Shown one piece after another: positions 4,108 to 26,899 of a DNA stretch of 45,021 nt. This DNA is from a virus: the IMG/VR virus record IMGVR_UViG_3300028029_000003, positions 1 through 45,021 of that record, one strand, 5' to 3'. How positions within the stretch are numbered: position 1 is the stretch's first letter; the number at the start of each line of letters is the position of its first letter. The notes beneath the pieces are model-generated. The model was given only the letters and a program-made list of their open reading frames with translations. It made no database searches and had not been told where the DNA came from. Both the position numbers and the translations under genes were made by a program.

Positions 4108-5280
4108 ATGGCTACTGGTGTAGTTTCAATTACTTCTGACCTGAAACGCAAAAGTTGGATGCGTGAAGGTCTTATTCAAGCTTCTTCTCAGTCTTTCTGG
4201 ACGCCCTTTACAGGCAATACCAAAGACGCAATCGTATATCAAGAGAACAATGAAAACTCAGGTGCTGGGCATACTGTTGTTTTTGACTACGATGGCAACT
4301 TATCTGGTAAAGCCGTTAAAGGTAAAGATACAGCGTACGGTAAGGGTGAACAAAAGAAGAAATTCTCGGACAAGATTACTGTTGAGCGTTATCGCTTAGT
4401 AGTTGACAACGGCGACAAGTTCGACGGCGTTGACATTGGTGATTTGTCTATCAACGAGCACTCAAACTCTCGTTCAGGTCTAGGCGATTTATTCGTGCGT
4501 AACAAAGACCAGTCGTTGTTTGATGCAGCACAGGGTAACCTACTGACTAATAACGATGGTCTTCAAGCACCGTCTCATATTATCGATTTAGGAACTACCT
4601 TCAACTTCAATACTCTTGTTGACATTGAAAAAATCTTGAGAACTTCTCAAGGCTTTAGTACTGGTGCAATGAGACGTCCTTTAGACCCTTATAAAGCTTC
4701 TCGCGGAAATAACGGTATTCACGGCGACTTGCCTGTTTGGGTATTTGTTATTGACTCGTCTATGGCTAATATCTTGCGTAAAGATGTTGCTGGCTATCAG
4801 ACAATCATGAAGGACGCTGACATTCGTGGTCAGAACAACCGTAACATCCAAGGTGTCTTTGGTACTCTTGGTCGTTTGATGATTGTTGAAGCGGGTCATT
4901 TCTTCGGAGAGACTTCTGGGACAACATCTGGGTGGGAGCTTGATGCTTCTGAAATTGAAATTAGTGGTATGCGACAGTACGATGGTGCGGACCCTGCGAG
5001 TGCTCTATGGACTGGCCAAGCTGGTTTTGACGACACGTCTTCTGACCTTCATTCACGTGGTTTGTTATTAGGGCGTAGTGCATTGCAACTAGCGATGGGC
5101 AAGCAACCTGATTACAAATACCAGCCTTCTCAAGATTTTGGTATCAAATCAGAATCGGCAGTTGAGTATTGGATGGAAGTTCGTAAGTGCCACTTGAAAG
5201 CGGAAAATGCTAAATACAAGAAAGCTAAAGTTGCTGACTTGGATTACGGTGTTATCGCTGTTGACTTGGGAGTAGCGTAA
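4108..5280 (+). CDS. Major capsid protein (N4-gp56 / DUF4043-like).
   Basis: Start re-set to ATG 4108, 6-7 nt after GAGGTG. The N-terminus KRKSWMREGLIQASSQSFWTPFTG...GAGHTVVFDYDGNLSGKAVKGKDTAYGKGEQKKKFSDKITVERYRLVV has the pattern I recall for N4-gp56-family capsid proteins. The gene follows the scaffold gene. Confidence 0.8.
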   Translation: MATGVVSITSDLKRKSWMREGLIQASSQSFWTPFTGNTKDAIVYQENNENSGAGHTVVFDYDGNLSGKAVKGKDTAYGKGEQKKKFSDKITVERYRLVVDNGDKFDGVDIGDLSINEHSNSRSGLGDLFVRNKDQSLFDAAQGNLLTNNDGLQAPSHIIDLGTTFNFNTLVDIEKILRTSQGFSTGAMRRPLDPYKASRGNNGIHGDLPVWVFVIDSSMANILRKDVAGYQTIMKDADIRGQNNRNIQGVFGTLGRLMIVEAGHFFGETSGTTSGWELDASEIEISGMRQYDGADPASALWTGQAGFDDTSSDLHSRGLLLGRSALQLAMGKQPDYKYQPSQDFGIKSESAVEYWMEVRKCHLKAENAKYKKAKVADLDYGVIAVDLGVA

Positions 5281-5306
5281 TGACTGACTTAAGACGCGAA
5301 GGTACT

Positions 5307-5708
5307 ATGGCTCAGAAGAAGGTAGAATGCTTCTTCGCTACTGAGCTAAACGAAGGCACGGAAAGCTTTGAGCTGGCTCTCGGTAACGGGAACCACGAGA
5401 TTGCTAACCTTCCTGCAAATATACTTATCACTGATGCGTATATTCACGTGAAGACTGCTGGCGATGCTGCTACTTCATCTACTTTTACTCTTGGAACAAC
5501 TTCAGGCGGAACTCAAATCCTGTCTGCTGCTAATGGTAAGACTCTAGGTGACCAGGGTACGTTCACTGGACAGTCTGATACGGGTTCAGGCAAGACGTTA
5601 TTCTTAGGAGTGACTAAAGTCGGTGCAGAAACTGCTATTGGTAAGTTCGTCATTGTCGTAGAGTACCTTGAGTACACTAAGACTTCAGGCGAATACACTA
5701 AGTTTTAA
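5307..5708 (+). CDS. Hypothetical virion protein (possible capsid decoration or minor head protein).
   Basis: ATG 5307 follows GAAGG by 5 nt. The alternative start at 5280 overlaps the capsid stop. The product is Gly/Thr-rich and looks beta-rich, and lies directly after the capsid gene. Confidence 0.55.
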   Translation: MAQKKVECFFATELNEGTESFELALGNGNHEIANLPANILITDAYIHVKTAGDAATSSTFTLGTTSGGTQILSAANGKTLGDQGTFTGQSDTGSGKTLFLGVTKVGAETAIGKFVIVVEYLEYTKTSGEYTKF

Positions 5709-13980: not shown

Positions 13981-14455
13981 ACTACAAGTACCATTAAACG
14001 TAGACAGCCCCAAGTTGCTTAGGAGGCTACTAGAAGCAGTTGTAGGTAGACTAGAAGAAGATAAAACTTCTTCTGACACTACTTTGTTAGAACTACAGAG
14101 CAATCAAAGTAGCCTAGTCACAGACTTAGCTGCAACTACGGTCAAAGCCTCACAGACGGACCAGAACGTGTACCAGGCGGCAGAATTAGGCAGTTTGTAC
14201 AAAGATTTTGATAGCCCTGCATGGGCAGGACTCAAAGGTAACTTTTCATTCACTACGTTAGGAAGTGAGACTTCTAATCCTCCAGTAACTCTAACAGGTG
14301 CAACTACATACATCGTATACGCGCATTGCGTTAGAACTAAGACCGGTGTAGTGCACAAAGTGATGATAGAAAATACAGGTACGGACTTGAGAGTCTTTTA
14401 CCGGACAGGTTCGACATTTACTTTAGCTATGACTAATGGTTGGACTCAGTTGTGA
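13973..14455 (+). CDS. Hypothetical virion protein (160 aa).
   Basis: ATG overlaps the upstream stop region. It has an N-terminal helical segment and a beta-rich C-terminus. Confidence 0.55.
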   Translation: MTKLQVPLNVDSPKLLRRLLEAVVGRLEEDKTSSDTTLLELQSNQSSLVTDLAATTVKASQTDQNVYQAAELGSLYKDFDSPAWAGLKGNFSFTTLGSETSNPPVTLTGATTYIVYAHCVRTKTGVVHKVMIENTGTDLRVFYRTGSTFTLAMTNGWTQL

Positions 14456-14934
14456 GTTTCATAGTCACAGGTTTACCCAGGAGCAGGACAGCGTGGTTTG
14501 CAGCACTGTTTACTGCATTAGGCAAGCCGTGTTCTCACGAGTTAACCAAAGACTGCAACAGCTTAAGTGACTTTAAATCTAGACTGAAGCTTGCAGGAAC
14601 AGCAGATAGCGGCGTTGTGTTGATAAAGCGTACTGTTAATGTCCCTACAGTAGTAATACACAGGCCTGTTAAACATGTAGTAGAGAGCTTAGGTGTGACT
14701 GACAAAAAGCAGATTCAGTTCTTTGAAGACATGGAAACTAACAGCTTGAGTATCAGCGGATTGCATGTTACGTACTGCGACATAGATGAAAGAATTCATG
14801 AGATAATTTCTCACTGTGTAGGTGATTTAGGCGATTACTACACAGTCAAGATGATGCAGTCATTTAACATACAAAGAACTAATCACAATTACAGTATAAC
14901 AGACTGGGCACTTAACCTAGTCAAGGAGTTTTAA
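14440..14934 (+). CDS. Sulfotransferase-fold-like protein (tentative).
   Basis: No ATG start is available. The candidates are TTG 14440 or GTG 14452, the latter forming a GTGA overlap with the upstream stop. FIVTGLPRSRTAWF resembles the 5'-phosphosulfate loop (PKSGTTW / PRSGTT). VVIHRPVKHVVES resembles the RxPxxxxxS 3'-phosphate motif. Confidence 0.4.
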   Translation: MDSVVSFIVTGLPRSRTAWFAALFTALGKPCSHELTKDCNSLSDFKSRLKLAGTADSGVVLIKRTVNVPTVVIHRPVKHVVESLGVTDKKQIQFFEDMETNSLSISGLHVTYCDIDERIHEIISHCVGDLGDYYTVKMMQSFNIQRTNHNYSITDWALNLVKEF

Positions 14935-25175: not shown

Positions 25176-25700
25176 ATGAAATGGTCAGAATTAGGAAAAT
25201 CAATAGCAGACTTTGCACCTGCTTTAGGCAGTGTACTCGGAGGTCCTCTTGGCGGAGGGCTAGGTGGTATTATAGCTAATGTGTTTGGCACGGAAGAAGA
25301 GCCTGGTGCGATACTGGCAGCTATAAAAGCTGACCCAGCAGCTGCAGTTAAGCTTCAGCAGATTCAATCAGATGAGCGAGTTAAGATACAAGAAGCTCAA
25401 GCTATACAGACTGCTTCGATGCTAGAAACTATTAACAAGACTATGAGAGAAGAGTCTAAATCAGAACACTGGATGCAGTGGGCTTGGAGACCTTTATGGG
25501 GTATCATAAGTGCAACGGCATTCTTTATAGTGTGTGGGCTAGTGTGCTATTTAGCTTATCTAGCTGTTATTGGTGGCAAACCAGAAGCCATGACAATGAT
25601 ACCAGGACTTATAACGTCCATGACTACATTGTTTGCGATTCCAGGTGCCATACTAGGTGTTGCTTCGTGGCACCGTGGAAAACAAAAGAGAGGTGTATAA
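25176..25700 (+). CDS. Holin (3-TM, GTA-release-type family).
   Basis: Start re-set to ATG 25176, with GGAG 7 nt upstream. ADPAAAVKLQQIQ...ESKSEHWMQWAWRPLWG is followed by hydrophobic helices, matching the DP...E..s..f..WRP..G signature I recall for the 3-TM GTA holin family. It is the last large gene of the late block. Confidence 0.7.
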   Translation: MKWSELGKSIADFAPALGSVLGGPLGGGLGGIIANVFGTEEEPGAILAAIKADPAAAVKLQQIQSDERVKIQEAQAIQTASMLETINKTMREESKSEHWMQWAWRPLWGIISATAFFIVCGLVCYLAYLAVIGGKPEAMTMIPGLITSMTTLFAIPGAILGVASWHRGKQKRGV

Positions 25701-25783
25701 TGGGTGGTCACAGACATCAGGCTAACAAAAAAGTGAAACACTTGAAAAAGAAGAAGCGGTCATCAACTGAATCTTCTTCTTAA
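25700..25783 (+). CDS. Possible 27-aa basic peptide coupled to the holin gene.
   Basis: The sequence is MGGHRHQANKKVKHLKKKKRSSTESSS*. There is a TAATG overlap with the holin stop, and GAGAGG lies 7 nt upstream. It is very short and its function is unknown. Confidence 0.3.
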   Translation: MGGHRHQANKKVKHLKKKKRSSTESSS

Positions 25784-25981
25784 GTAGCTCAGTCTCTGGG
25801 AGCGTTTTGCTCCTAGAACCTCTTTAGAGCACATACCATCTGTGTATGTAGAATAACCATACAACTGACACTCTTTGGTCCTTCTTTGGTTAGCTTGACC
25901 TTTGTAATACAAATCAATGATAGGCACAACAAGCAATGTAACTATCACAGTGTAAAAAGCAACTTCCAGCAGCCTAGACAC
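25763..25981 (-). CDS. Small membrane protein (72 aa), last gene of the minus block and a lysis-accessory candidate.
   Basis: GTG 25981 lies 6 nt after GAGG and overlaps the upstream stop. It has an N-terminal TM segment VAFYTVIVTLLVVPII, then KECQLYGYSTYTDGMC. The track start at 26011 overlaps the upstream gene by 38 nt. Confidence 0.4.
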   Translation of the reverse strand: MSRLLEVAFYTVIVTLLVVPIIDLYYKGQANQRRTKECQLYGYSTYTDGMCSKEVLGAKRSQRLSYLRRRFS

Positions 25982-26411
25982 TGATAACCTCAAGCTCAAC
26001 GCCATAATCATTTTTGATTATATTGTAAACTATACTTGCGTATATCTTCTTATAGACTGCAGTGGAGTGACTTATGCTTGCTCCTATACTAGCAGATTCA
26101 CCAACAAGTATACAACCTTCTGTGTCTCTTGGATAATTACCTATGTGTAGTAGGATGTACTTATAGTTTGGCACGTCTAGCACTTCTATCATGCCTTTGT
26201 GGTCAGCGAATTTAACTCCATACCTTTGATGGAAGCCACCAACTTTTCTGAGGCCTAGTTTGTAAGTGCCTTCAGGTATCCTAGTCTCACCAGGTATCTT
26301 GTGTGCATGCCAAGGGTCTTCTATAGTGTGGCACAGAATTTTGCCGTTGTGCATTAGCAAACCTTTAGTGTGCTTGCTGTCTGCAAAGTATCTTCTTAGT
26401 TCAAGTTTCAT
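25974..26411 (-). CDS. DUF5675-like protein with a YkuD-type H...GC motif, a putative cell-wall enzyme.
   Basis: 145 aa. TKGLLMHNGKILCHTIED...ETRIPEGTYKL...ILLHIGNYPRDTEGCILVGES matches the pattern I recall for DUF5675 and the His/Gly-Cys catalytic signature of L,D-transpeptidase-fold enzymes. Confidence 0.6.
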   Translation of the reverse strand: MKLELRRYFADSKHTKGLLMHNGKILCHTIEDPWHAHKIPGETRIPEGTYKLGLRKVGGFHQRYGVKFADHKGMIEVLDVPNYKYILLHIGNYPRDTEGCILVGESASIGASISHSTAVYKKIYASIVYNIIKNDYGVELEVISV

Positions 26412-26899
26412 AGTTCTACACTCCAGTCTTCAGCTAGCATGTCTGTCTGACTGCATAGCCAAGGTACAATCTGTCCATCAGCTGTCTTCATGTCAACGTG
26501 AGCATGGTAGTTAATCTCAGTGCCCTCAGGATATATGCCTAATAGAGGTACCCTGTTAACTTTAAATGTGGACCCACTAACTAAGAATAAGAACATACTT
26601 CTTCCATTCCAACCAGCTCGGTGAACCTTGTGACCTCTTTTAAGCATCAACAAAGCATCACCAAACGTCAACTGCCCATTAGGATTATAAGCTTCGTTGA
26701 ACACATCCTCAGGTGACCATGAAATGTAGCCATCGTGCTTAGGGTGATTAGACTTACCTCCGTCACAGTGCTCAACAAAGTAGCCTTCGTCTTCACCGTT
26801 CTCATCATCAGGCAGTTTCCATCCTCTGTACTCAATATACTCAGCTCTATTCATTACTTGAGCTACGATTAGCTTTGAACCTACGTGTAATTTATTCAT
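26408..26899 (-). CDS. Two-domain protein with a C-terminal DUF2829 (Tad2-like) domain.
   Basis: The C-terminal half LTFGDALLMLKRGHKVHRAGWNGRSMFLFL...DGQIVPWLCSQTDMLAEDWSVEL carries the DUF2829 hallmarks. The N-terminal ~75 aa (YRGWKLPDDENGEDEGYFVEH...GYISWSPEDVFNEAY) form a separate module. Confidence 0.75.
   Translation of the reverse strand: MNKLHVGSKLIVAQVMNRAEYIEYRGWKLPDDENGEDEGYFVEHCDGGKSNHPKHDGYISWSPEDVFNEAYNPNGQLTFGDALLMLKRGHKVHRAGWNGRSMFLFLVSGSTFKVNRVPLLGIYPEGTEINYHAHVDMKTADGQIVPWLCSQTDMLAEDWSVEL

What the first reader, a model, noticed from the sequence alone, without database searches (positions are those of the whole stretch)
25176..26411. Split lysis cassette at the convergence point, with a YkuD-like DUF5675 protein as the only lysin candidate
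- **Where the blocks meet.** The late plus-strand block ends with a 3-TM GTA-type holin (25176..25700) plus a coupled 27-aa basic peptide. The minus-strand block ends face-to-face with a DUF5675-like protein (25974..26411) and a 72-aa TM protein (25763..25981). The two small terminal ORFs overlap convergently by 21 nt.
- **No classical lysin.** I found no lysozyme, amidase, transglycosylase, M15/M23 peptidase or lipobox spanin anywhere in the genome.
- **The candidate motif.** The DUF5675 protein carries LLHIGNYPRDTEGCILVG, which looks like the His...Gly-Cys catalytic signature of L,D-transpeptidase (YkuD) fold enzymes.
- **Why it matters.** A YkuD-fold endolysin expressed from the early strand, opposite its holin, would be an unconventional lysis arrangement.
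Basis: partly seen in the sequence, partly recalled or inferred. Interest (0 to 1): 0.62.

Follow-up and report, generated by a model that had tools for sequence, protein, structure and literature searches.

The report
Phage lysis genes with DUF5675 lysin
A complete 45-kb phage genome has no standard cell-wall-cutting enzyme. Its likely substitute is a small cysteine/histidine enzyme of the untested DUF5675 family, encoded face-to-face with the membrane-hole protein (holin); this role has already been predicted for the family in other phages.

Summary
**Observation: confirmed.**
- All four ORFs exist at the stated coordinates, and the two terminal ORFs overlap convergently by 21 nt.
- The 145-aa protein is a clear DUF5675 member (E 1e-28). 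The 174-aa protein just passes the GTA_holin_3TM cut-off.
- Pfam or PHROG scans of every plausible ORF found no classical lysin. Two suspicious PHROG labels were checked and dismissed.

**Interpretation: partly supported.**
- His89 and Cys100 are the only invariant residues across 112 diverse homologues.
- 39 of 112 members give sub-threshold matches to Tlde1_dom and 5 to YkuD.
- In unrelated phages the gene sits beside holins and small membrane proteins. It also occurs fused to Amidase_3 and to a GTA_holin_3TM domain.
- Direct tests of the YkuD fold failed. Foldseek against the PDB found nothing, and hhalign did not beat a shuffled null.

**Novelty: low.**
- crAss-like phage records already call this family 'L,D-carboxypeptidase/transpeptidase'.
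- A 2026 preprint calls it a C82-like lysin.
- This scan has noted the same idea about 166 times on other DNA.
- A lysin among DNA-metabolism genes and a holin after the tail fibre is also the T7 layout.
- No member of the family has been assayed.

**Unexplained extras:** a conserved 27-aa Lys-rich ORF and a conserved two-Cys 72-aa membrane protein.

The parts
25974..26411 (-). DUF5675 protein, 145 aa. It is soluble, with no signal peptide or TM segment. It is the candidate Cys/His peptidoglycan peptidase and endolysin. His89 and Cys100 lie in LLHIGNYPRDTEGCILVG.
   Evidence: - PF18925 at E 1.3e-28.
- H89 and C100 are the only invariant columns among 112 homologues.
- AF2 model has pLDDT 94.
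- No TM segment.
- The start overlaps the Tad2-like stop by 4 nt.
25763..25981 (-). 72-aa membrane protein. It has one N-terminal TM segment and a basic C-terminal tail with two conserved Cys. It is translationally coupled to DUF5675: its GTG start overlaps the DUF5675 stop by 8 nt, with GAGG 6 nt upstream. It is a candidate holin, antiholin or lysis regulator.
   Evidence: - ORF and sequence.
- TM segment at residues 4-22.
- Weak match to phrog_4237 'holin', E 0.005.
- Homologues follow DUF5675 in L001 (ATG at the same position) and L028, both with the motif EC..GY...G.C.K......SQ.L..LRR.
25176..25700 (+). 174-aa holin-like protein (GTA_holin_3TM family). It is the last large gene of the structural (late) strand, directly after the 672-aa tailspike.
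   Evidence: - PF11351 at 25.5 bits against a 24.8 cut-off.
- phrog_1544 at 5e-25 and phrog_3427 'holin' at 5e-7.
- TM segments at 115-133 and 142-160, plus a Gly-rich N-terminal segment.
- The same family sits next to DUF5675 in L027 and is fused to it in P0191.
25700..25783 (+). 27-aa Lys-rich ORF (MGGHRHQANKKVKHLKKKKRSSTESSS). It is coupled to the holin stop as TAATG, with GAGG 6 nt upstream. Function unknown.
   Evidence: - Conserved as an ORF in L001 (28 aa). The first 13 residues are identical, with only synonymous nucleotide changes.
- Also conserved in the more distant L028 (26 aa).
- 9 K/R and 1 D/E.
25748..25781 (.). Inverted repeat AAGAAGAAG / CTTCTTCTT (9 bp, 16-nt loop) at the convergence point. 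On the minus strand a U-rich run follows it, so it looks like a weak terminator for the DUF5675/TM operon. It coincides with the Lys and Ser codons of the 27-aa ORF.
   Evidence: - Repeat found.
- The hairpin is present in the minimum-free-energy folds of both strands.
- The consensus terminator scan did not call it.

Best explanation
**What it is**
- The window is a complete podophage genome.
- Its endolysin is the 145-aa DUF5675 protein. This is a soluble cytoplasmic Cys/His enzyme with nucleophile Cys100 and general base His89.
- It belongs to a very large, biochemically untested family that is remotely related to the L,D-transpeptidase / Tlde1 superfamily of peptidoglycan stem-peptide enzymes.

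**How it most likely works**
- The protein is made from the 3' end of the replication/recombination strand. It is translationally coupled to the upstream genes and accumulates harmlessly in the cytoplasm.
- Lysis timing is set by the 174-aa GTA_holin_3TM holin at the end of the late structural operon on the other strand. The holin permeabilises the inner membrane and lets the enzyme reach the wall.
- The coupled 72-aa single-TM protein modulates or assists the holin. The role of the 27-aa basic ORF is unknown.

**Shown**
- The ORFs, the family memberships, the invariant His/Cys, the recurrent lysis-gene context and the fusions.

**Inferred**
- Enzymatic activity, the bond cleaved, expression timing, and the roles of the two small proteins.
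For: **No alternative lysin in the genome**
- No classical lysin domain in any plausible ORF.
- The one ORF labelled 'hydrolase' by PHROGs (14440..14934) is Sulfotransfer_3-like.

**Catalytic signature**
- H89 and C100 are the only invariant columns in 112 diverse homologues.

**Remote sequence link to peptidoglycan enzymes**
- Tlde1_dom (PF10908) is the second most frequent Pfam match (39 of 112 members, best E 5.5e-4).
- YkuD is third (5 of 112, best E 0.011).
- All other families are sporadic.
- Tlde1a is a proven peptidoglycan L,D-carboxypeptidase/transpeptidase with an altered L,D-TPase fold (PMC9638812).

**Gene context in unrelated phages**
- In crAss-like cr128_1 the gene directly follows 'lysis regulatory protein/holin'.
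- In L025 a Phage_holin_4_1 gene follows it.
- In L027 a GTA_holin_3TM gene overlaps its end.
- In L024, L029 and L030 it is flanked by small TM proteins.

**Domain fusions**
- Fused to Amidase_3 in P0137 and to GTA_holin_3TM in P0191.
- Found inside 868-1251-aa phage proteins.

**Distribution**
- Present in 5-7 kb Microviridae genomes.
- DUF5675 occurs in 180-223 phage records. Canonical YkuD occurs in 6.

**Conservation of this arrangement**
- Kept in relatives L001 to L004 and L028.

**Independent proposals**
- crAss annotation as 'L,D-carboxypeptidase/transpeptidase'.
- 'C82-like' lysin LysPd160.
Against: - No DUF5675 protein has been assayed. The preprint reports only structural comparison for LysPd160.
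- Foldseek against the PDB gave no significant hit for a high-confidence model. HMM searches against PDB sequences found nothing relevant.
- hhalign against YkuD was not above the null.
- The window protein itself has no Tlde1_dom or YkuD match at E<=1 (table A).
- The known activities of the nearest relatives would not by themselves cut cross-links. These are L,D-carboxypeptidase trimming and D-amino-acid exchange.
- The gene lies on the replication strand next to an anti-defence gene (Tad2-like), so an accessory, non-lytic role is conceivable.
- About 20 ORFs still have no family assignment and could hide an unrecognised lysin.
- The holin assignment is marginal (25.5 against 24.8 bits).
Confidence: 0.7

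Rival explanations
1. DUF5675 acts on peptidoglycan but is not the endolysin. It would be an accessory enzyme expressed with the middle genes. It could trim tetrapeptides as an L,D-carboxypeptidase, like Tlde1 or Csd6. Possible purposes are superinfection exclusion, altered wall turnover, or sensitising the wall before lysis. The true lysin would then be an unrecognised ORF.
For: - The gene sits at the end of the replication strand, coupled to the Tad2-like and VRR-NUC genes.
- No promoter-like site lies directly upstream.
- The nearest characterised relative, Tlde1a, is a carboxypeptidase/exchange enzyme rather than a cross-link endopeptidase.
- Many ORFs remain unassigned.
Against: - The gene recurs directly next to holins in unrelated phages and is fused to a holin domain and to Amidase_3.
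- It is present in 5-7 kb microviruses, which have little room for accessory genes.
- No other lysin candidate was found in this genome.
Confidence: 0.15
2. The minus-strand pair (DUF5675 plus the 72-aa TM protein) is a self-contained endolysin-holin cassette. The 174-aa plus-strand protein would then not be the holin; it might be a virion or membrane protein of another function. On this reading the cassette is not 'split'.
For: - The 72-aa gene is translationally coupled to DUF5675, and the pair is conserved in three lineages.
- It has a weak PHROG 'holin' match.
- The PF11351 score of the 174-aa protein is barely above the cut-off.
Against: - GTA_holin_3TM proteins are adjacent to DUF5675 or fused to it elsewhere, which links these two families independently.
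- A holin co-expressed with middle genes would risk premature lysis (inference).
- The 174-aa protein also matches phrog_3427 'holin'.
Confidence: 0.1
3. DUF5675 has nothing to do with the cell wall. It would be a Cys/His enzyme acting on another substrate, and its frequent position near small membrane proteins would be coincidental.
For: - No significant structural or sequence match to any solved peptidoglycan enzyme.
- My profile-profile test was non-significant.
Against: - The Amidase_3 fusion, the holin fusion, the lysis-cassette context in crAss-like and other phages, and the recurrent Tlde1_dom/YkuD sub-threshold matches.
Confidence: 0.05

Closest known systems
DUF5675 genes of crAss-like phages, annotated 'L,D-carboxypeptidase/transpeptidase' after PhiCrAss001 (for example cr128_1 QOR59725.1)
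   Same: - Same Pfam family, at 36-40% identity.
- Small single-domain protein.
- Lies in the lysis region directly after a 'lysis regulatory protein/holin' gene.
   Different: - In the crAss-like phages the holin-like gene and the enzyme are co-directional. Here the main holin candidate is on the opposite strand, at the end of the structural operon.
- The crAss annotation is also a prediction and has not been tested.
LysPd160, a DUF5675 'C82-like' lysin candidate (bioRxiv 10.64898/2026.04.11.717860)
   Same: Same domain family. The preprint proposes the same idea from predicted structures: a phage lysin resembling MEROPS C82 (YkuD) peptidases.
   Different: - The preprint itself notes 'significant differences' from typical C82.
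- The passages I read report no activity assay for LysPd160.
- My Foldseek search did not recover the similarity.
Tlde1a (Salmonella T6SS antibacterial effector; Pfam Tlde1_dom PF10908; structure 7UMA) and YkuD-type L,D-transpeptidases or Csd6
   Same: - Cys/His chemistry on the peptidoglycan stem peptide.
- The motif H...[ST]-x-G-C-[ILV] is shared.
- The predicted order strand(His), loop, strand(Cys), helix, strand looks, from my recollection of the YkuD C-terminal core, like the same order.
- Sub-threshold Pfam matches occur in 39 of 112 (Tlde1_dom) and 5 of 112 (YkuD) family members.
   Different: - His-to-Cys spacing is 11 residues. It is 16 in E. coli LdtB.
- No match reaches a Pfam cut-off, and there is no Foldseek or PDB hit.
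- The N-terminal half differs.
- The biological role differs: phage lysis rather than toxin or wall maturation.
- The known relatives are carboxypeptidases or transpeptidases, not proven lytic endopeptidases.
Phage T7 lysis gene layout (gp3.5 amidase among class II genes next to gp3 endonuclease I; gp17.5 holin after tail fibre gp17). Stated from established knowledge, not tested here.
   Same: - The lysin is encoded with DNA-metabolism genes near a junction-resolving nuclease. Here that is a VRR-NUC protein matching a PHROG Holliday-junction-resolvase family.
- The holin is encoded immediately after the tail fibre/tailspike gene.
- The internal virion proteins are T7-like.
   Different: - T7 genes are all co-directional. 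Here the two arms converge, so the lysin and holin genes end up physically adjacent.
- The lysin is DUF5675 rather than an Amidase_2 protein.
- No spanin was found.
RcGTA holin/endolysin pair (rcc00555/rcc00556), the founding members of GTA_holin_3TM
   Same: The 174-aa protein belongs, marginally, to the same holin family. Paper PMC3423380 links these genes to GTA release (title and abstract listing only).
   Different: The partner enzyme here belongs to a different family.

Membership tests
DUF5675 (Pfam PF18925) | Match to the family HMM above the gathering score | tested here: met
   99.6 bits against a cut-off of 26.7, E 1.3e-28, covering profile positions 2-112 of 114.
DUF5675 (Pfam PF18925) | Conserved His...Gly-Cys pair | tested here: met
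   H89 and C100 are the only invariant columns in 112 sequences. G91, N92, T97, G99 and L102 are at least 90% conserved.
YkuD / L,D-transpeptidase catalytic domain (PF03734, MEROPS C82) | Match to the PF03734 HMM | tested here: not met
   - No match for the window protein at E<=1.
- A six-frame search of the genome found none.
- Only 5 of 112 family members give sub-threshold matches (best E 0.011).
YkuD / L,D-transpeptidase catalytic domain (PF03734, MEROPS C82) | Structural similarity of the fold to solved YkuD-domain proteins | tested here: not met
   - Foldseek of the pLDDT-94 model against the PDB gave a best E of 0.046 (RNase E, TM 0.17). No YkuD, Csd6 or Tlde1a entry was among the 50 matches listed.
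YkuD / L,D-transpeptidase catalytic domain (PF03734, MEROPS C82) | Catalytic motif H-x(n)-[ST]-x-G-C-[IV] with His and Cys on neighbouring strands | tested here: inconclusive
   - The motif H-x8-T-E-G-C-I-L is present, with a spacing of 11 against 16 in LdtB.
- hhalign puts His on His and Cys on Cys, but the score of 16.4 is matched by 22 of 200 column-shuffled nulls.
YkuD / L,D-transpeptidase catalytic domain (PF03734, MEROPS C82) | L,D-specific acyl-enzyme chemistry on the mDAP-D-Ala bond | not testable with these tools
   Needs muropeptide LC-MS with purified protein.
Tlde1 domain (PF10908) | Match to the family HMM above the gathering score (30.1 bits) | tested here: not met
   - The window protein has no match at E<=1.
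- 39 of 112 homologues match below the cut-off (best E 5.5e-4; P0137 at 17.4 bits).
- This is suggestive of a superfamily link, not of membership.
Holin-endolysin(-spanin) lysis cassette of phages of Gram-negative hosts | A holin-family membrane protein next to the lysin | tested here: met
   - PF11351 at 25.5 bits against 24.8, and phrog_3427 'holin'.
- Its coding end lies 273 nt from the lysin gene's coding end (25700 to 25974), on the opposite strand.
- A coupled 72-aa TM protein is also present.
Holin-endolysin(-spanin) lysis cassette of phages of Gram-negative hosts | A spanin (i-/o-spanin pair or u-spanin) | tested here: not met
   - No conserved lipobox ORF.
- The lipobox-like +1-frame ORF inside the holin gene is broken in relative L001.
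- 5280..5708 carries a PHROG 'Rz-like spanin' label but has no TM segment.
Holin-endolysin(-spanin) lysis cassette of phages of Gram-negative hosts | Muralytic activity of the enzyme and holin-dependent lysis | not testable with these tools
   Needs expression and lysis assays.

The most novel reading that the evidence does not exclude
- DUF5675 would be a truly new catalytic class of endolysin: a Cys/His peptidase that cuts an L,D bond or 3-3 cross-link, which no characterised endolysin targets.
- In this phage lineage it would work in a spanin-less four-part system.
- The conserved 72-aa two-Cys membrane protein would gate the holin.
- The conserved 27-aa Lys-rich peptide coupled to the holin would regulate the convergent transcripts or act on the envelope in place of a spanin.
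Probability: 0.12. Interest if true: 0.65.

Novelty: new member of a known kind. Interest (0 to 1): 0.35.

Why it matters
- DUF5675 is very widespread. It has 11,818 clusters at 50% identity. It is found in crAss-like gut phages, marine and Vibrio phages, Campylobacter phages and even microviruses.
- In genomes like this one it is the only candidate wall-degrading enzyme.
- If it is an endolysin, it is one of the most common uncharacterised lysin classes and a source of new enzybiotic scaffolds. Its bond specificity would add a catalytic type to the endolysin repertoire.
- This particular window adds one clean 'no other lysin' example, and a T7-like separation of lysin and holin across two convergent operons.
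- It is not a new idea. The prediction already exists in database annotations, in a 2026 preprint and in many earlier notes of this scan.

Tried and rejected
1. **Foldseek against the PDB** to show the YkuD fold found no significant hit.
2. **phmmer and hmmsearch** of the protein and of two family profiles against PDB sequences found nothing relevant.
3. **hhalign of DUF5675 profiles against YkuD.**
   - Tested against E. coli LdtB alone, six E. coli Ldt domains, and 17 YkuD domains collected from E. coli, plasmids and phage records.
   - The catalytic motifs align, but the score is not above a column-shuffle null.
4. **The search for related loci** with the Ldt alignment failed because no conserved stretch was available.
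5. **PHROG 'hydrolase' label on 14440..14934.** Rejected as a lysin. Its homologues carry Sulfotransfer_3, and the protein has a P-loop-like GLPRSRT motif.
6. **PHROG 'Rz-like spanin' label on 5280..5708.** Rejected. There is no TM segment, and the gene sits directly after the capsid gene.
7. **Lipobox-like 95-101-aa ORF in the +1 frame of the holin gene.** Rejected. In relative L001 the Cys is lost and the frame is interrupted.
8. **'Disruptin'-type role for the 27-aa peptide (phiKT gp28, 10.1101/515445).** Considered unlikely. The peptide has only four hydrophobic residues, by my count of the sequence.
9. **PDB sequence searches of the 1405-aa and 536-aa virion proteins** found no hits.
10. 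**Promoter/terminator scan.** Counts were no higher than in shuffled sequence, and there was no promoter-like site directly upstream of DUF5675.
Full report
**1. What the window is**

The 45,021-bp window has a 127-bp direct terminal repeat and 42% GC. The genome service classes it as a complete virus record with direct terminal repeats.

The plus strand carries the structural genes:
- capsid
- SU10-type adaptor
- LamG fibre
- T7-like internal virion/ejection proteins
- P22-type portal
- a 1405-aa protein
- a 672-aa tailspike

The minus strand carries:
- a terminase pair at the left end
- from the right end inward, early genes, a primase/helicase-like protein, an SF1 helicase, a gp2.5-like SSB, DNA polymerase A, a thymidylate-synthase homologue, a deaminase, a PD-(D/E)XK nuclease, an SNF2-like protein and a DNA ligase
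- then a VRR-NUC/Holliday-junction-resolvase-like protein, a Tad2-like protein, and the two genes of the finding

The two arms converge at about 25.77 kb.

**2. The observation**

All four ORFs are present as described.
- **Holin-like gene, 25176..25700 (+).** It starts 2 nt after the tailspike stop.
- **27-aa ORF.** Its ATG at 25700 overlaps the holin stop (TAATG) and has GAGG 6 nt upstream.
- **DUF5675 gene, 26411..25974 (-).** It overlaps the Tad2-like stop by 4 nt.
- **72-aa ORF.** It starts at a GTG (25981) that overlaps the DUF5675 stop by 8 nt, again with GAGG 6 nt upstream. In relative L001 the homologous codon is ATG, which supports this start.
- **Terminal overlap.** The two terminal ORFs overlap by 21 nt (25763..25783).

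Family assignments:
- DUF5675 at E 1.3e-28.
- GTA_holin_3TM at E 2.1e-5, only just above its cut-off.
- PHROG 'holin' families at 5e-7 for the 174-aa protein and at 0.005 for the 72-aa protein.

Hydropathy:
- The holin has two strong C-terminal TM segments plus a Gly-rich N-terminal segment.
- The 72-aa protein has one N-terminal TM segment.
- DUF5675 has none, so it needs a holin to reach the wall.

**3. Is DUF5675 the only lysin candidate?**

I scanned every ORF that could plausibly be a gene with Pfam or PHROGs. No classical muralytic domain appeared. Two misleading labels were checked.
- **14440..14934, phrog_10855 'hydrolase'.** Its homologues carry Sulfotransfer_3 (PF13469), and it has a GLPRSRT P-loop-like motif. 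It is not a lysin.
- **5280..5708, PHROG 'Rz-like spanin' at E 2e-42.** It has no TM segment and follows the capsid gene. It is not a spanin.

Other checks:
- The 1405-aa and 536-aa virion proteins have no Pfam lysin domain and no PDB sequence relative.
- A lipobox scan found nothing conserved. The +1-frame ORF inside the holin gene loses its Cys and its frame in L001.
- About 20 small ORFs remain unassigned, so an unrecognised lysin cannot be excluded.

**4. What DUF5675 is**

The family is very large, with 11,818 clusters at 50% identity at E<=1e-3.

*Conserved residues.*
- In an alignment of 112 diverse members, the only invariant columns are His89 and Cys100.
- G91, N92, T97, G99, L102 and G104 are at least 90% conserved.

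*Predicted structure.*
- AlphaFold2 gives a confident model (pLDDT 94, pTM 0.88).
- Its C-terminal half runs strand(...H89), loop, strand(C100...), long helix (116-133), strand.
- From my recollection of L,D-transpeptidase domains, that is the same order as their core around the catalytic His and Cys. This is a comparison by eye with the E. coli LdtB sequence and remains inference.

*Direct tests of the YkuD fold were negative or inconclusive.*
- Foldseek against the PDB found nothing significant.
- Profile and sequence searches against PDB chains found nothing relevant.
- hhalign against 17 YkuD domains aligned YILLHIGN....TEGCILVG with LYAIHGTN....SHGCVRL. The score (16.4) was reached by 22 of 200 column-shuffled controls.

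*The best sequence link.*
- Scanning the 112 members individually against Pfam, Tlde1_dom (PF10908) is the second most frequent match (39 members, best E 5.5e-4).
- YkuD is third (5 members, best E 0.011).
- All other families are sporadic.

I therefore regard DUF5675 as probably a remote member of that superfamily, but not demonstrated as such. It fails the membership tests for the YkuD and Tlde1_dom Pfam families themselves.

**5. Evidence that the family acts in lysis**

*Gene context in unrelated phages.*
- In crAss-like phage cr128_1 the homologue lies directly after 'lysis regulatory protein/holin'.
- In L025 a Phage_holin_4_1 protein follows it, and then an N-terminal-TM coiled-coil protein.
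- In L027 a GTA_holin_3TM gene overlaps its end.
- In L024, L029 and L030 it is embedded among small TM proteins.
- Vibrio phage papers list a DUF5675 ORF next to a 'TM helix' ORF.

*Domain fusions.*
- DUF5675 + Amidase_3 (P0137) and DUF5675 + GTA_holin_3TM (P0191).
- DUF5675 inside 868-1251-aa phage proteins.

*Distribution.*
- Homologues occur in 5-7 kb Microviridae genomes.
- DUF5675 is in 180-223 of 50,697 phage records. Canonical YkuD is in 6.

**6. The specific arrangement**

The convergent layout is conserved.
- In the 44.7-kb relatives L001 to L004 (DUF5675 77% identical) the order is ligase, VRR-NUC, DUF5675 and the TM protein, facing the basic peptide, the holin and the tailspike.
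- The shorter contig L028 (67% identical) also carries the Tad2-like gene.
- Tad2-like is absent from L001, so it is an accessory insertion rather than part of the module.

Expression and timing (inferred):
- DUF5675 is translationally coupled to the upstream genes, and no promoter-like site lies just upstream. It is therefore probably co-transcribed with the replication/recombination genes.
- This is not a problem for a cytoplasmic endolysin, because timing is set by the holin at the end of the late operon.
- The same logic applies in T7, by textbook knowledge. There the gp3.5 amidase lies beside gp3 endonuclease I in class II, and the gp17.5 holin follows the tail fibre.
- 'Unconventional' is therefore too strong. 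The layout is T7-like, folded into two convergent arms.

**7. The small proteins**

*72-aa protein.*
- It keeps a TM segment and the motif EC..GY...G.C.K......SQ.L..LRR, with two conserved Cys, in all three lineages.
- Its tail is very basic (the whole protein has 12 K/R against 5 D/E).
- It could be a second holin, an antiholin or a regulator. A holin made early would be risky, so I lean towards a regulatory or partner role. This is inference.

*27-aa ORF.*
- It is conserved as an ORF with its Shine-Dalgarno sequence in all three lineages.
- Between the window and L001 the first 13 codons differ only synonymously (three changes).
- It has only four hydrophobic residues, so it is unlike the amphipathic 'disruptin' gp28 of phiKT (10.1101/515445).
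- Its Lys and Ser codons form the two arms of a 9-bp inverted repeat. On the minus strand a U-run follows this repeat, giving a weak terminator-like element for the DUF5675/TM operon.
- Its function is unexplained.

**8. Comparison with what is known, and verdict**

The enzyme idea is already in the public record.
- crAss-like phage records call the family 'L,D-carboxypeptidase/transpeptidase' or 'transpeptidase catalytic domain protein'.
- Preprint 10.64898/2026.04.11.717860 proposes DUF5675 (LysPd160) as a 'C82-like' lysin from predicted structures.
- This scan has recorded the same reading about 166 times in at least 161 other genomes. My tests agree with those follow-ups.

No member has been assayed, so the function remains a well-supported prediction. 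This window is a clean additional example: no other lysin, conserved in relatives, with a T7-like split of lysin and holin. It is a new member of a known, predicted kind.

Noticed in passing
window 26408..26899 (-): - A Tad2-like (PF11195, E 6e-23) anti-Thoeris-type gene lies directly upstream of DUF5675 and is translationally coupled to it.
- It is present in relative L028 but absent from the 44.7-kb relatives L001 to L004.
- It therefore looks like a variable accessory insertion between the VRR-NUC gene and the lysin.
   Followed up: partly
window 14440..14934 (+): - A 164-aa protein lies among the internal-virion/ejection genes.
- It is labelled 'hydrolase' by PHROGs (phrog_10855), but its homologues carry Sulfotransfer_3 (PF13469).
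- It has a GLPRSRT P-loop-like motif.
- A sulfotransferase-like gene inside a podophage core-protein block is odd.
   Followed up: partly
window 5280..5708 (+): - A 142-aa protein directly after the major capsid gene matches phrog_20969 'Rz-like spanin' full-length at E 2e-42.
- It has no TM segment or coiled-coil character.
- It is probably a head-associated protein, and the PHROG label is probably wrong.
   Followed up: partly
window 25478..25783 (+): - A 95-101-aa ORF in the +1 frame of the holin gene has a lipobox-like LFSLSSC.
- It runs into the 27-aa ORF.
- In relative L001 the Cys is Ser and a stop separates it from the peptide, so it is probably not a gene.
   Followed up: yes
window 25795..25815: A second, GC-rich hairpin (CUGGGAGCG-UUUUG-CUCCUAG) lies just past the plus-strand 27-aa ORF, inside the 3' coding part of the minus-strand 72-aa gene. 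The two convergent operons therefore probably produce overlapping, complementary 3' ends.
   Followed up: no
phage records H113, H118, H122, H129: DUF5675 homologues occur in 5-7 kb Microviridae genomes. This suggests that the gene has moved between tailed phages and single-stranded-DNA phages.
   Followed up: no
P0172 and P0191: Some family members carry a C-terminal membrane anchor after a long low-complexity linker (P0172), or a whole GTA_holin_3TM domain (P0191). These are possible membrane-tethered or self-exporting lysin variants.
   Followed up: no
L024 4656..4901 and L030 4456..4680: - In two unrelated DUF5675 loci, a downstream 74-81-aa protein combines an N-terminal TM segment with a very Lys/Arg-rich tail.
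- This is reminiscent of the separate TM protein and basic peptide in this window.
   Followed up: no
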